Below, one piece after another: positions 18,001 through 21,000 of a stretch of 64,000 bases of DNA (position 1 is the stretch's first letter; every line of letters starts with the position of its first letter). Location of the stretch: NCBI RefSeq assembly GCF_054482525.1, contig NZ_CM137006.1. One strand, written 5' to 3'. The position numbers were made by a program.

Positions 18001-21000
18001 AATAAAGGGAATAAAGTCACATATAGATTCTCACTGCAGAAATGGTTTTTACCCCAAGGAGATTTTCAGGAAGCATGGAGTGTAATTAATTCATATTGTA
18101 GTGATAGGGGCTATAGATTACCGTCTAGTACGGATATAGTGGGGAGTGCAACTAGCGGTGCTGTCCCGCGAAAAGTAGGTTCGTTATGGGGTGAATATGG
18201 TAATCTGACTTCTTATGACGGAATATTTCGCTCTGAACATTATTGGCTCGACAGCGGTATGATATTTTATCCAGGAGATGGTCATCTCTCGATAGCGTCA
18301 CGTTCATCCGCATTGTGTTTGCAAGAGTTCTGATGTTACTTATATTTTTGCCCTGCATATGCAGGGCAATTTATCTTAGTTCTTACGCAGAAGTACGCAT
18401 CACACCGATAGTATTAAATTCATTTTTTACACTGAGCAAACGGGGGTCATGAAGCAAAACATTTGACCATAAATCATTGTCTTTAATTAATTGTTGCCAG
18501 CGCCTTTCATATTCTTTTTTACCATACACAGTGTAAATCAACGGCAAAATAACACCATTGATTTTGTTGGTGTTAATATTTGCCAGTAACTTCATAATGT
18601 CATTTTTTATAGATGCGCCATAGATCAGAAATTTCGTATAAAGCGAGTTAACACAGGTGTAATCAAGACCATGTTCAGGCTCAAGTTTAAGCAATAAACT
18701 TTTGGCTTTGTCATTATGTCCTTTCAGTGCCATGAACATAGCCAGAATAGAGGTAATAATTGGATTATTACAGGTGTTTTGACTGTTAAGATTTAATGCA
18801 AAAGATATCGCGTTATCGAGGGGGGATGTGTAATAAAGTATAATTAATTTAAGAATGCTTATACCCATTTTATTGGGTTCAAGAGCAATACTTTTTTCTA
18901 TTAGATTAAATGCTCTTGCAAGGTCACCGTTCAAAAAACATAGCAGAGACTGATAATAATAAACGTCTGGCGAATTAGGTTTGAGTAAATGTGCTTGCTT
19001 AAATAGCACATTAGACACTGAATGTTCATCTTTTAGCCCACTGATTAAACCCAGTAAACCCAATGCCTGAGAATTTGAAGGGTTAATTTCAAGAGCCTTT
19101 TCAATGGAGGTTACTGCCGTAGTTATTGCTTGTTTTTGTTCACTGAGTCCAAGGAGGGCTAATGATATATGGCATTCCGCCAGGCAACAGTAGGGCAAGG
19201 TATTTTGCGGTTGCGTACTCACACAATCTCTAAATATTACTAATGCTCGTTTCAAACTCTCTGGTGTATAACGGTACATTTCCATTCTGCCATTCATATA
19301 CATAACAGCAGAATCCAGAGATGGCATTTGTTGTGTATTAATAGATTTAAAATTAATGTTGGGTATTTTTTCAATAAGAATATTAATTACTTGTGATAAT
19401 AATACGGAAAGAGGATTATCGGGATTGAAATCAATACTTTGATGATCAATCAATTTATGTGTTCTGGCATGAATTAACTCAATAAATAAACGCCAGTTTT
19501 TACCATAGTGAACGACCTGACCCATAATATAATATTCTGGACCTGTTTTATTGATAAACTGATGGATAGTGGAGAAATCACTGGCCTCATTTGTTACCGA
19601 AGCGGGTAAAATATCTAAACCACAAAAAGCATATTTTGAAAGGCCCTGGACAAGTTCGTAATGGAGTTTTAGAACATTGATCGAACCTTCGGTACGAAAG
19701 GGAAAAACGGCAAGAGTGGTGGTCGACTTTACCGGTTCATTATCGGTCACAATCACAATAGGTACAGTAAAACGGTATCCACGACCATAGACCGTTTCGA
19801 TATACTTACACTGTTTATTCTCATGCAAAAGTTTGCGCAATGCATAAATACATCGTGTTAGAGATTCATCACTGGCAACACTCGCGCTCCAGACCTTATC
19901 GATAATCTCTTCTTTGCTAACAATTTCACCGTCAGCATTAAGTAATAGAATGATAACGCCAAGTTCTTTCGGTGGAATATGATATTCTTTGTTTTTGAAT
20001 AATAATATTCCATTGTTTTTTAATACAAAGTCGCCAAATATATATTGTTGTGTATTATTTTTTCCATGTTGCAGTTGCATAGAACGCTCCTTCCGTTTTC
20101 TCTATTCATAGTATTAATTTGATCAATATAAAATAAAGTATTGGCAGAATTGCTCTATCAAAAAACGCTCATTTTGTAAGATTGTGATGAAGAAATGAAT
20201 GAAAGGTGATGCTTAATAATATAAAACGCTGGTCCCATTTTTCGGGACCAGATAGTGGATGATAATTGTGGGTGTTACTTAATCAGAAACGTAAATAATC
20301 CTTCGCTGAATCAAACAATGCAGTAATGGTTGACGATAATAATTTGATAATTGTATCGTAGGTAGAGTTGGCTGTACTGTATTTAGTCGTGATAACCTGC
20401 ACGTCGGTTTTCATGTTTTCTGCCTGGCCGTTATAACCCGCCAGCCATGCCTGGTATTCAGCCGTGCTTATTTCGTAGCCGGTGAATTCTTTAGATATAT
20501 TTTTTTCCTTCCCTTTATCGTCCCTGTGTACCATTGAGTCTGAAGACTGACTCATACTGTCAATAATCTGAGGGTTGGGAATAATAACATACAGACCGCT
20601 ACCTTGCGGTTCAACTTCGACAATCGGAGAAGGTGTGCGGTGTTTGGGATCGGGTGGAATTACCGGAAGACCTAAAGCGGCGCACCATTTTTCTGCTTCT
20701 TCCAGTGGAACGCCAATTTTGTCAGCTGGTGCCGGAGGGTATAAAACATAGTCTGGATTGTAATGATAGTGGAAATCACCATTAGGATATTTATCGATAT
20801 AATAAAAATGCATCAAGGCCTTTTGAAATGCATTGACATCAAAAACTATCGCATCGCCTTTTTTATTCGAGTGAGTCCATTTTCCCATATTGCTTTGGAT
20901 ATGTTCACTGAAGTCCTGCCAGTATGCGCTCATTATCTCAACGCTATTTGCATAGATTTCGAGGTAGTCGCTACCGAGCACACTCATCAAATCAGCAATA

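What the first reader, a model, noticed from the sequence alone, without database searches (positions are those of the whole stretch)
18383..20080. HilA-like regulator placed between the adhesin gene and the translocon operon
A 565-aa protein with an N-terminal OmpR/ToxR winged-helix domain and a long TPR-like C-terminus, the architecture of Salmonella HilA, sits convergent to the adhesin gene and directly upstream (same strand) of the translocon operon but is separated from it by a terminator. This suggests a dedicated activator that could co-regulate the translocon operon and the adhesin, and possibly a distant apparatus locus.
Basis: inference. Interest (0 to 1): 0.6.

Follow-up and report, generated by a model that had tools for sequence, protein, structure and literature searches.

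The report
Known E. coli virulence regulator EilA
The gene is eilA, an already characterised HilA-like master switch of E. coli that turns on a type III secretion translocon, a giant adhesin and a distant secretion-apparatus island, so the finding is correct but not new.

Summary
The 565-aa ORF at 18383-20080 (minus strand) is real. It is eilA. The DNA is 100% identical to E. coli SCU-102 and PCN033. The protein is 561/565 identical to EilA of EAEC 042, the characterised protein. It scores 952 bits full-length on NCBIfam's HilA/EilA model (cut-off 589), has a Trans_reg_C winged helix at residues 31-104, and is 37% identical to Salmonella HilA without gaps. The window holds the selC-B/eip island: nepI | air/eaeX | eilA | eipD-eipC-eipB-eicA | yicS.

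Published work already shows that EilA controls eicA, eipBCD, air and the ETT2 genes eivF and eivA, and that it replaces HilA in Salmonella.

One correction: eilA lies downstream (3') of eipD, behind a terminator-like hairpin, not upstream of the operon.

Two cis-elements are my own inference:
- A HilA-box-like repeat, TCATCA-N5-TRRTCATG, sits before air, eivF and eprH.
- An InvF/MxiE-type box, ATGAGCG-NN-TTTTGATA, sits before eicA, ygeF and eilA itself. Its core matches Salmonella PsicA at 13/14 positions. It is conserved before EilA-clade genes in four species.

This suggests an EilA -> EivF/chaperone -> eilA feedback loop, which is untested.

The parts
18383..20080 (-). eilA coding sequence, 565 aa, HilA/EilA-family transcriptional activator
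   Evidence: ORF. 100% nt identity to the RefSeq gene 'eilA: HilA family transcriptional regulator EilA'. NCBIfam NF009037 at 952 bits against a cut-off of 589, full length. 561/565 identical to EAEC 042 EilA.
19769..19990 (-). Codons 31-104: OmpR/PhoB-type winged-helix DNA-binding domain (Trans_reg_C)
   Evidence: Pfam PF00486, E=8e-16. It holds the family-invariant ESLTRCIYALR and YIETVYGxGYR motifs.
18692..19243 (-). Codons ~280-463: TPR-like helical repeat region of the C-terminal half
   Evidence: Weak Pfam TPR hits. NCBIfam TPR-protein models match at residues 280-463, E down to 1.5e-9.
20087..20092 (-). Ribosome-binding site AAGGAG, 6 nt before the ATG
   Evidence: Sequence. The block AAAACGGAAGGAGCG is conserved in E. 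albertii.
20156..20174 (-). InvF/MxiE-type box AAATGAGCGTTTTTTGATA in the eilA promoter region, 76 nt before the ATG
   Evidence: One of only two exact copies in the 64-kb window. Core matches the Salmonella PsicA site at 13/14 positions. Conserved in EAEC 042 and E. albertii. Similar boxes lie ~100 nt before the EilA homologues of E. fergusonii and Y. enterocolitica. Function is inferred.
20180..20191 (-). TTCATCACAATC, a HilA-box-like half-site just 5' of the box
   Evidence: Part of the best-conserved intergenic block between E. coli and E. albertii. Function is inferred.
20128..20136 (-). TTATTTTAT, a candidate -10 region about 20 nt downstream of the box
   Evidence: Invariant in E. coli, EAEC 042 and E. 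albertii while the flanks diverge. No transcription start site is mapped, so this is inferred.
20229..20251 (-). Terminator-like hairpin CTGGTCCC-N7-GGGACCAG followed by a T-tract, downstream of the eipD stop codon
   Evidence: Terminator scan. Fold dG -14.7 kcal/mol, z -2.0. Stem retained in E. albertii with a different loop.
18348..18369 (.). Bidirectional terminator hairpin between the convergent air and eilA stop codons
   Evidence: Fold dG -17.1 and -16.8 kcal/mol; 0 of 200 shuffles do as well on either strand.
20283..21632 (-). eipD, needle-tip protein of the IpaD/SipD family
   Evidence: NCBIfam TIGR02553, E=2e-39. RefSeq annotation.
21676..22806 (-). eipC, the SipC/IpaC-position translocator (no family hit)
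   Evidence: Its position between eipB and eipD. Named in the literature.
22819..24600 (-). eipB, translocon subunit SctE (SipB/IpaB-like)
   Evidence: NCBIfam NF011901, E=1e-32. RefSeq annotation.
24848..25345 (-). eicA, class II chaperone of the SicA/IpgC (SycD/LcrH) family
   Evidence: TIGR02552 at 114.6 bits (cut-off 104.8); SicA model at 151 bits.
25407..25425 (-). InvF/MxiE-type box AAATGAGCGAATTTTGATA, 62 nt before the eicA ATG
   Evidence: Exact copy. Conserved in E. albertii and in a divergent E. coli eip island. Positional counterpart of the InvF site in Salmonella PsicA.
7216..18333 (+). air/eaeX/iatC, a 3705-aa inverse-autotransporter adhesin with Ig-like repeats and a known EilA target
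   Evidence: ORF. RefSeq 'inverse autotransporter adhesin IatC / EaeX/Air'. Literature.
7130..7148 (+). HilA-box-like direct repeat TCATCA-TTTGC-TAATCATG, 67 nt before the air ATG
   Evidence: The only exact match in the window. The same motif lies before eivF and eprH in ETT2. 0 of 3000 shuffles reproduce the three-way sharing. The ATCA phasing is kept in E. albertii. Function is inferred.

Best explanation
The ORF is eilA, the HilA-family (OmpR/ToxR-type) transcriptional activator of the E. coli selC-B/eip island.

Its N-terminal winged helix binds DNA. The long C-terminal TPR-like part has no receiver domain, so activity is set mainly by how much EilA is made.

eilA is transcribed from its own promoter, in the 202-nt gap behind the eipD terminator. 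EilA activates the adhesin gene air, the eicA-eipBCD translocon operon, and the ETT2 apparatus genes eivF and eivA about 1 Mb away. These points are shown in the literature for the 99%-identical orthologue of EAEC 042.

The wiring I infer from the sequence is as follows.
1. EilA, and its paralogue YgeH, bind a HilA-box-like direct repeat (TCATCA-N5-TRRTCA) 51-67 nt before the air, eivF and eprH start codons.
2. EivF is the InvF/MxiE homologue. Together with a SicA-like chaperone (EicA or YgeG), it acts on an InvF-type box (ATGAGCG-NN-TTTTGATA) placed where a -35 element would be, before eicA, ygeF and eilA itself.
3. The translocon operon would then be controlled through a cascade, as in Salmonella (HilA -> InvF/SicA -> sicA-sip).
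4. Unlike Salmonella hilA, eilA would receive positive feedback from the chaperone-dependent tier.

In this strain's lineage the apparatus genes epaO and eivJ are disrupted. Here the regulon probably matters more for the adhesin than for secretion.
For: Identity:
- 100% nt identity to annotated eilA; the gene is present in 730 of 5426 complete E. coli genomes.
- The window region 5700-30000 is 100% identical to strain SCU-102.
- 561/565 identical to EAEC 042 EilA.
- NCBIfam HilA/EilA equivalog at 952 bits against a cut-off of 589.
- Trans_reg_C E=8e-16.
- 37% identity and 61% similarity to S. enterica subsp. arizonae HilA over 544 residues with no gaps.

Function (literature):
- EilA regulates eipB, eipC, eipD, eicA, eaeX, eivF and eivA, and affects adherence and biofilm (PMC4210603, PMC7058095, PMC11068852).
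- EilA complements a Salmonella hilA mutant through invF.
- A reporter carrying ~500 bp upstream of eilA is active and is induced in LB:DMEM. This fits an own promoter.
- A ygeH mutant down-regulates eivF, eivA, eprH and ygeG.

Cis-elements (this work):
- The exact TCATCA-N5-TRRTCATG motif occurs only before air, eprH and eivF in 90 kb scanned. 0 of 3000 shuffles match this.
- A related repeat lies in Salmonella PprgH and before the Yersinia prgH homologue.
- The InvF-type box is exact before eilA, eicA and ygeF.
- The Salmonella PsicA sequence was fetched and matches at 13/14 core positions.
- PMC7595419 cites Darwin & Miller as proposing and confirming, by point mutations in the sicA promoter, an InvF site that overlaps its -35. 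It prints no sequence, and I could not read Darwin & Miller, so placing that site on the PsicA stretch I aligned rests on my memory.
- The box resembles the Shigella MxiE box GTATCGTTTTTTTANAG.
- The box is the best-conserved intergenic block between E. coli and E. albertii. It recurs ~100 nt before the EilA homologues of E. fergusonii and Y. enterocolitica.
- EivF is InvF-like; EicA and YgeG are SicA-like.
Against: - No experiment was done on this strain.
- I could not read Sheikh et al. 2006, Lostroh & Lee 2001 or Darwin & Miller 2001. The published HilA-box and InvF-site sequences were therefore not compared letter by letter, and prior description of these boxes cannot be excluded.
- Both motifs were defined post hoc from the promoters they are said to explain.
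- No transcription start site is known for any of these promoters.
- The InvF-type box is missing before eilA in a divergent E. coli eip island (L085) and before Salmonella hilA.
- EivF scores below the InvF equivalog cut-off (184.8 against 259 bits), so identical DNA specificity is assumed, not shown.
- In this lineage epaO is frameshifted and eivJ is split. Secretion-coupled feedback may therefore be inoperative.
Confidence: 0.9

Rival explanations
1. EilA acts directly on every target promoter, including eicA and its own. The shared 19-nt box would then be the EilA binding site (autoregulation) rather than an EivF/chaperone site, with no cascade.
For: Published data list eicA and eipBCD among EilA-dependent genes without resolving direct from indirect control. 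TTCATCA half-sites lie next to the box in the eilA promoter and upstream of it in the eicA promoter.
Against: The box core matches the Salmonella PsicA sequence at 13/14 positions and resembles the MxiE box, and AraC-type InvF/MxiE proteins bind sites of this kind. It has no direct-repeat structure of the type OmpR-family proteins use. The promoters expected to be direct HilA-type targets (eivF, eprH) lack it and carry a different motif. The air and eicA upstream regions share nothing significant.
Confidence: 0.2
2. eilA has no promoter of its own and is expressed as the last gene of the eicA-eipBCD transcript, by read-through of a weak hairpin.
For: The gene is on the same strand, only 202 nt after eipD. 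The hairpin is modest (z -2.0; 8 of 200 shuffles fold as well).
Against: A 500-bp fragment upstream of eilA alone drives a GFP reporter (PMC7058095). The intergenic region contains a conserved box, a conserved -10-like TTATTTTAT and a hairpin-plus-T-tract that is maintained in E. albertii. Some read-through in addition to the own promoter is not excluded.
Confidence: 0.1
3. In this particular strain the gene is an evolutionary leftover. The secretion apparatus is broken and the AT-rich island is silenced, so EilA is not expressed or has no consequence.
For: In SCU-102 and PCN033 epaO is frameshifted and eivJ is split. SCU-102 is a commensal isolate from a healthy person. The island is 37-38% G+C against about 52% for the backbone, which is typical of H-NS-silenced DNA. 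H-NS represses ygeH.
Against: eilA, eicA, eipBCD and the 3705-aa air gene are all intact reading frames. EilA differs from the functional 042 protein at only 4 of 565 residues. The Air-dependent adherence and biofilm phenotypes do not need a secretion apparatus.
Confidence: 0.25

Closest known systems
EilA of enteroaggregative E. coli 042 (Sheikh et al. 2006, Mol Microbiol 61:338)
   Same: 561/565 residues identical. Same island and gene order: yicS | eicA-eipB-eipC-eipD-eilA | air | nepI. The eipD-eilA intergenic region is nearly identical.
   Different: Four amino-acid substitutions. air is 3705 aa here against about 3806 aa in 042. The selC-A phage-like insertion of 042 is absent here. nlpA is frameshifted. 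The ETT2 of this lineage has a frameshifted epaO and a split eivJ, whereas 042 is reported as intact.
HilA of Salmonella enterica SPI-1
   Same: Same architecture: N-terminal OmpR/ToxR winged helix, long TPR-like C-terminus, no receiver domain. 37% identity without gaps. EilA functionally replaces HilA at invF. The candidate target motif has the two-hexamer, 5-nt-spacer layout that I recall for the HilA box. That layout is from memory of Lostroh & Lee, not checked in any paper I could read. A similar repeat is present in PprgH.
   Different: hilA sits between hilD and iagB next to the apparatus genes and is driven by HilD, HilC and RtsA. eilA sits at the 3' end of the translocon operon on an island separate from the apparatus. 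No hilD homologue is annotated in the loci examined. eilA carries an InvF-type box that Salmonella hilA lacks.
YgeH of the ETT2 island
   Same: HilA-family paralogue in the same genome. It also complements a hilA mutant and up-regulates eivF, eivA and eprH.
   Different: YgeH is 458 aa, with a shorter C-terminus. EilA scores only 228 bits on the YgeH model against a cut-off of 800. YgeH is encoded inside ETT2, after ygeF and ygeG.
InvF-SicA (Salmonella) and MxiE-IpgC (Shigella) sites, for the cis-element before eilA, eicA and ygeF
   Same: A T-rich box of about 17 nt with the core GCGTTTTTTGA. It matches PsicA at 13/14 positions and the MxiE box GTATCGTTTTTTTANAG at about 12/17 positions. It is spaced consistently with overlapping a -35 element. 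It precedes the chaperone-translocator operon.
   Different: Here the box also precedes the master-regulator gene. No binding data exist. The presumed activator EivF is below the InvF equivalog cut-off.

Membership tests
HilA/EilA family virulence transcriptional regulators (NCBIfam NF009037) | Full-length match to the family profile above the curated cut-off | tested here: met
   952.2 bits against a cut-off of 589. Residues 1-552 align to profile positions 2-553 of 553.
HilA/EilA family virulence transcriptional regulators (NCBIfam NF009037) | N-terminal OmpR/PhoB-type winged-helix DNA-binding domain without a receiver domain | tested here: met
   Pfam Trans_reg_C at residues 31-104, E=8e-16, with no Response_reg hit.
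HilA/EilA family virulence transcriptional regulators (NCBIfam NF009037) | Long C-terminal helical, TPR-like region | tested here: met
   Individual Pfam TPR hits are weak (E 0.005-0.009). NCBIfam TPR-protein models are significant over residues 280-463 (E 1.5e-9). The region aligns without gaps to HilA.
HilA/EilA family virulence transcriptional regulators (NCBIfam NF009037) | Encoded with Inv-Mxi-Spa (SPI-1-type) type III secretion genes | tested here: met
   The gene is adjacent to eicA (SicA-like), eipB (SctE) and eipD (SipD/IpaD-like). A SPI-1-type ETT2 cluster is present in the same genome.
HilA/EilA family virulence transcriptional regulators (NCBIfam NF009037) | Activates invF- and prgH-type promoters through a HilA box | not testable with these tools
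   Shown genetically for the 99%-identical 042 protein in Salmonella (PMC4210603). Here only candidate boxes were found before eivF, eprH and air.
EilA orthologue group (E. coli selC-B/eip island) | Near-identity to the characterised EAEC 042 protein, in the same genomic context | tested here: met
   561/565 identical. Same flanking genes. RefSeq names the gene eilA.
YgeH (NCBIfam NF008870) | Score above the curated cut-off | tested here: not met
   228.4 bits against a cut-off of 800. The protein is a paralogue, not YgeH.
CadC/ToxR-type membrane-bound one-component regulators | Winged helix followed by a transmembrane segment and a periplasmic sensor domain | tested here: not met
   Only the winged helix matches CadC (residues 40-115, 50 bits against a cut-off of 400). 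The rest aligns to cytoplasmic HilA. Transmembrane prediction was not run.
InvF/MxiE-box promoters (cis-element before eilA, eicA and ygeF) | Sequence similarity to an experimentally defined InvF or MxiE site | tested here: met
   Core TG-GCGTTTTTTGA matches S. arizonae PsicA at 13/14 positions. About 12/17 positions match the MxiE box. That the aligned PsicA stretch is the defined InvF site rests on my memory of Darwin & Miller; PMC7595419 cites it but prints no sequence.
InvF/MxiE-box promoters (cis-element before eilA, eicA and ygeF) | Dependence on an InvF-family activator plus a class II chaperone, with the box overlapping the -35 | not testable with these tools
   EivF (InvF-like) and EicA/YgeG (SicA-like) are encoded in the genome. 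No transcription start site or binding data exist.

The most novel reading that the evidence does not exclude
Genes of the EilA clade of HilA-like master regulators carry, about 90-110 nt before their start codon, a conserved InvF/MxiE-type box. This holds in E. coli, E. albertii, E. fergusonii and Y. enterocolitica. The master regulator would then be under positive feedback from the chaperone-dependent, secretion-sensing tier (EivF plus EicA or YgeG). Salmonella hilA lacks such a box, and I did not see this loop described for ETT2/eip in the papers I could read. The same analysis gives testable binding sites for the whole EilA/YgeH -> EivF cascade and a motif for finding unknown ETT2 effectors.
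Probability: 0.4. Interest if true: 0.4.

Novelty: already known. Interest (0 to 1): 0.15.

Why it matters
As given, the finding rediscovers a named and experimentally studied regulator, so it adds nothing new. It does show that the first-stage reader can infer function correctly from raw sequence.

The by-product may be useful to people working on the cryptic ETT2 system. It consists of two candidate operator motifs that split the regulon into a HilA-type tier (air, eivF, eprH) and an InvF-type tier (eicA-eipBCD, ygeF, eilA). ETT2's regulation, effectors and function are still obscure, and intact copies are enriched in bloodstream ST69 isolates. The motifs offer mutable sites for reporter work and a search pattern for effector genes.

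Tried and rejected
Papers not held:
- Sheikh et al. 2006 (PMID 16762026), Lostroh & Lee 2001 (PMC99542) and Darwin & Miller 2001 (PMC125432) could not be read.
- Their content is cited only through later open papers. The published HilA-box and InvF-site sequences could not be checked directly.
- Searches for a printed HilA-box sequence in open papers returned only reference-list mentions.

Fetching Salmonella sequence:
- The protein database search with EilA did not return Salmonella HilA, because of word-index sensitivity.
- All comparisons use the real Salmonella DNA fetched afterwards (L015, L027).

- The longest common word is 8 nt, no better than 26 of 60 shuffles.
- The two promoters do not share one operator. 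They fall into two different motif classes.

InvF-type box searches that were negative:
- Before air and eivF: none at up to 3 mismatches.
- Before Salmonella hilA, Pandoraea and Sodalis homologues: none convincing.
- Some Chromobacterium loci have a near-match 235-300 nt upstream. This was not pursued.

A first attempt to fetch the PCN033 ETT2 region missed by 50 kb before it was found. One Python call was an aborted stub. No structure prediction was run, because identity was already settled by sequence.
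Full report
**Observation**

The window has an ATG-initiated ORF of 565 codons at exactly 18383..20080 on the minus strand. An AAGGAG ribosome-binding site lies 6 nt before the ATG.

Pfam finds an OmpR/PhoB-type winged helix (Trans_reg_C) at residues 31-104, E=8e-16. It finds only weak single TPR hits in the C-terminal half. NCBIfam TPR-protein models match residues 280-463 more convincingly (E down to 1.5e-9).

The gene is convergent with a 3705-aa ORF at 7216..18333 on the plus strand. The two stop codons are 49 nt apart and share a strong bidirectional hairpin at 18348-18369 (dG about -17 kcal/mol; 0 of 200 shuffles fold as well on either strand).

On the same strand, at higher coordinates, lie four type III secretion genes:
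- 24848-25345: a SicA/LcrH-type chaperone.
- 22819-24600: an SctE/SipB-like translocator.
- 21676-22806: an ORF with no family hit.
- 20283-21632: a SipD/IpaD-type tip protein.

A hairpin plus T-tract sits at 20251..20229, between the tip-protein stop codon and the regulator's start.

The description is therefore correct with one exception. These genes are read from high to low coordinates, so the regulator lies downstream (3') of the translocon operon, behind that operon's terminator. It does not lie upstream of it.

**Identity**

The ORF is 100% identical in DNA to the RefSeq gene 'eilA: HilA family transcriptional regulator EilA' of E. coli PCN033, SCU-102 and 19KM1776. It is found in 730 of 5426 complete E. 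coli genomes. Window 5700-30000 is 100% identical to SCU-102, a rectal-swab isolate from a healthy person.

The protein scores 952 bits, full length, on NCBIfam NF009037 (HilA/EilA family; cut-off 589). It scores only 228 bits on the YgeH model (cut-off 800).

I fetched the eip locus of EAEC 042, the strain in which EilA was characterised. The two proteins differ at 4 of 565 residues. Against real Salmonella enterica subsp. arizonae HilA, the identity is 37% and the similarity 61% over 544 residues with no gaps.

The surrounding genes are those of the published selC-B/eip island. The order is nepI | air/eaeX/iatC | eilA | eipD eipC eipB eicA | yicS, nlpA, yicL, setC, then selC. The island is 37-38% G+C against about 52% for the flanking backbone.

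**What is already known**

I could not read Sheikh et al. 2006 (Mol Microbiol 61:338). Three open papers summarise it:
- eilA and eaeX mutants adhere less and form less biofilm (PMC4210603, PMC7058095, PMC11068852).

Huttener et al. 2014 showed that EilA and YgeH from strain 042 restore SipA secretion and invF transcription in a Salmonella hilA mutant. They also showed that a ygeH mutant down-regulates eivF, eivA, etrA, eprH and ygeG. Fox et al. 2020 showed that about 500 bp upstream of eilA drives a reporter that is induced in LB:DMEM. They also found that intact ETT2 plus eip loci are typical of ST69 bloodstream isolates.

That inference is right, and it was published in 2006.

**The distant apparatus locus in this lineage**

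I located ETT2 in PCN033 and SCU-102. The full gene set is present: ygeF, ygeG, ygeH, the org and epr genes, the epa genes, and eivJ to eivF. In both assemblies, however, epaO (SpaO/YscQ family) is annotated as frameshifted and eivJ is split. Fox et al. argue that loss of full-length EpaO should inactivate secretion. In this strain EilA probably matters more for the adhesin than for injection. This is an inference.

**How it is wired (my analysis; inferred, not shown)**

An unbiased longest-common-word test finds nothing significant between these two regions: 8 nt, matched or exceeded by 26 of 60 shuffles. Instead, the T3SS promoters fall into two classes.

*Class 1: a HilA-box-like repeat.*
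- The motif is TCATCA-N5-TRRTCATG.
- Exact copies occur only at window 7130-7148 (67 nt before the air ATG), before eprH (60 nt) and before eivF (51 nt). These are the only exact copies in 90 kb scanned on both strands.
- 0 of 3000 shuffles of the three promoters reproduce such three-way sharing for this mask. The mask was chosen post hoc.
- The layout is two hexamers with a 5-nt spacer, which is how I recall the Salmonella HilA box being described. I could not check this in any paper.
- Salmonella PprgH has TTCATTC-TATT-TCCATCAGG with the same 11-nt phasing.
- The Y. enterocolitica prgH homologue has TCATCATGATCTCGTCATG.
- E. albertii air keeps the ATCA phasing.
- eivF and eprH are the counterparts of invF and prgH. 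From memory of the Salmonella literature, those are the direct HilA targets.

*Class 2: an InvF/MxiE-type box.*
- The motif is the 19-nt box AAATGAGCG-NN-TTTTGATA.
- It is exact at 20174..20156 (76 nt before the eilA ATG) and at 25425..25407 (62 nt before the eicA ATG). Only 0.38 matches are expected by chance in the whole window, even allowing 3 mismatches.
- A third exact copy lies in ETT2, 87 nt before ygeF, the gene ahead of the chaperone gene ygeG.
- I fetched Salmonella PsicA. It reads CATTGGGCGTTTTTTGAATGTTCAC, and the core TG-GCGTTTTTTGA matches at 13/14 positions.
- PMC7595419 cites Darwin & Miller as proposing, and confirming by point mutations in the sicA promoter, an InvF site that overlaps its -35. 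It gives no sequence, so equating that site with the stretch I aligned rests on my memory.
- The Shigella MxiE box GTATCGTTTTTTTANAG is similar.
- ETT2 encodes the needed proteins. EivF is InvF-like (184.8 bits, below the equivalog cut-off of 259). EicA and YgeG are SicA-like chaperones.

**Conservation of the box**

- The box before eicA is exact in E. albertii and in a divergent E. coli eip island whose EilA is only 57% identical.
- In the eipD-eilA spacer, the E. coli / 042 / E. albertii alignment shows what is best conserved. The conserved parts are the block TTCATCA(C/G)AATC..AAAATGAGCnTTTTTTGATAG, a TTATTTTAT about 20 nt downstream (a candidate -10), the ribosome-binding site and the terminator stem. 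The rest diverges.
- E. fergusonii and Y. enterocolitica have EilA homologues at 51-54% identity. These sit in the hilA position of an apparatus cluster. A one-mismatch box (TGAGCTCTTTTTGATA and TGAGCCATTTTTGATA) nevertheless lies about 100-110 nt before their start codons, in sequence that is otherwise unalignable.
- The box is absent before eilA in the divergent E. coli island and before Salmonella hilA.

**Model**

1. EilA or YgeH binds the class 1 repeat and activates air, eivF (with eivA) and the epr genes.
2. EivF, with a free chaperone, acts on the class 2 box and activates eicA-eipBCD, ygeF (and possibly ygeG and ygeH) and eilA.

This reproduces the published regulon. It mirrors the Salmonella sequence HilA -> InvF/SicA -> sic/sip, and it adds a feedback loop onto the master regulator. 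I did not see this loop described in the open papers I could read.

Rival readings are scored in the report sections:
- The box is EilA's own operator.
- eilA is expressed by read-through of the eipD terminator.
- The locus is silent in this commensal strain.

**Verdict**

The feature is real and correctly interpreted, and it is already known as EilA. Interest in the finding as given is low. The operator motifs and the inferred feedback loop are a modest, testable addition.

Noticed in passing
window 20156-20174 (-), 25407-25425 (-); L004 1839-1857 (+): Three exact copies of the 19-nt box AAATGAGCG-NN-TTTTGATA lie before eilA, eicA and the ETT2 gene ygeF, on two unlinked islands. The core matches the Salmonella PsicA sequence and resembles the Shigella MxiE box. 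Related boxes lie before EilA homologues of E. albertii, E. fergusonii and Y. enterocolitica.
   Followed up: yes
window 7130-7148 (+); L004 10535-10553 (-), 23689-23707 (-): A HilA-box-like direct repeat, TCATCA-N5-TRRTCATG, is found only before air, eprH and eivF, 51-67 nt from each start codon. A related repeat lies before the Yersinia prgH homologue and in Salmonella PprgH.
   Followed up: yes
L004 14413-16235 (SCU-102 ETT2); L003 18912-20734 (PCN033): The ETT2 apparatus cluster of this lineage is complete in gene content. However, epaO (SpaO/YscQ family) is frameshifted and eivJ (SpaN family) is split in two independent assemblies. Secretion is therefore probably defective, while all regulators remain intact.
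   Followed up: partly
window 7216-18333 (+): The adhesin gene air/eaeX/iatC is an intact 3705-aa ORF with long Ig-like repeats and 59-61% G+C in the repeat part. Its length varies widely: about 3806 aa in strain 042, 1763 aa in E. albertii, and two CDSs in the PCN033 assembly, probably from repeat collapse or a frameshift.
   Followed up: partly
window 24656-24838 (-): A 60-aa ORF lies between eicA and eipB. It is annotated 'hypothetical protein' in PCN033 and flagged as frameshifted in EAEC 042. I saw no family assignment for it.
   Followed up: no
window 26305-27229 (+): nlpA is split into two overlapping ORFs of 220 and 94 aa. It is annotated as frameshifted in PCN033 but intact in EAEC 042. 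This is a backbone pseudogene next to the island.
   Followed up: no
window 29391-29409 (+): A two-mismatch copy of the InvF-type box (CAATGAGCTTTTTTTGATA) lies between setC and tRNA-Sec, beside a rhuM gene fragment. That is the position where EAEC 042 carries the phage-like selC-A insertion. It may be chance or a remnant.
   Followed up: no
window 4936-5602 (-): A RelE/ParE-type toxin gene and an HTH antitoxin gene sit between nepI and yicN, next to the island. The pair is also present in 042 and PCN033.
   Followed up: no
L085 / L086 (E. coli, Logan ERR3329175 and GCA_910664965.1): Some E. coli carry a second, divergent eip-type island at a different chromosomal site. Its EilA is 57% identical. 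An inverse-autotransporter adhesin gene lies upstream on the same strand, with IS remnants. The box before eicA is conserved, but no box precedes eilA.
   Followed up: partly
L005, L006: Contigs carrying 99%-identical eilA are filed under metagenome-assembled genomes named 'Collinsella sp.' and 'uncultured Clostridium sp.'. These are almost certainly mis-binned E. coli contigs in the species-representative collection.
   Followed up: no
window ~47400-47700 and 60000-64000: BRO-family and DnaD gene fragments (a prophage remnant) lie between yicC and yicG. The low-G+C stretch (37-38%) at the end of the window is the waa/rfa LPS-core gene cluster, not another virulence island.
   Followed up: partly
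L007, L008, L010, L035 (Chromobacterium-type loci), ~235-300 nt before the HilA homologue: Near-matches to the InvF-type core (TGGGCGTTTTTTGC, TGGACGTTTTTTGC, TGGACATTTTTTGA) lie upstream of the HilA-like gene. This hints that the feedback wiring may extend beyond Enterobacterales.
   Followed up: no
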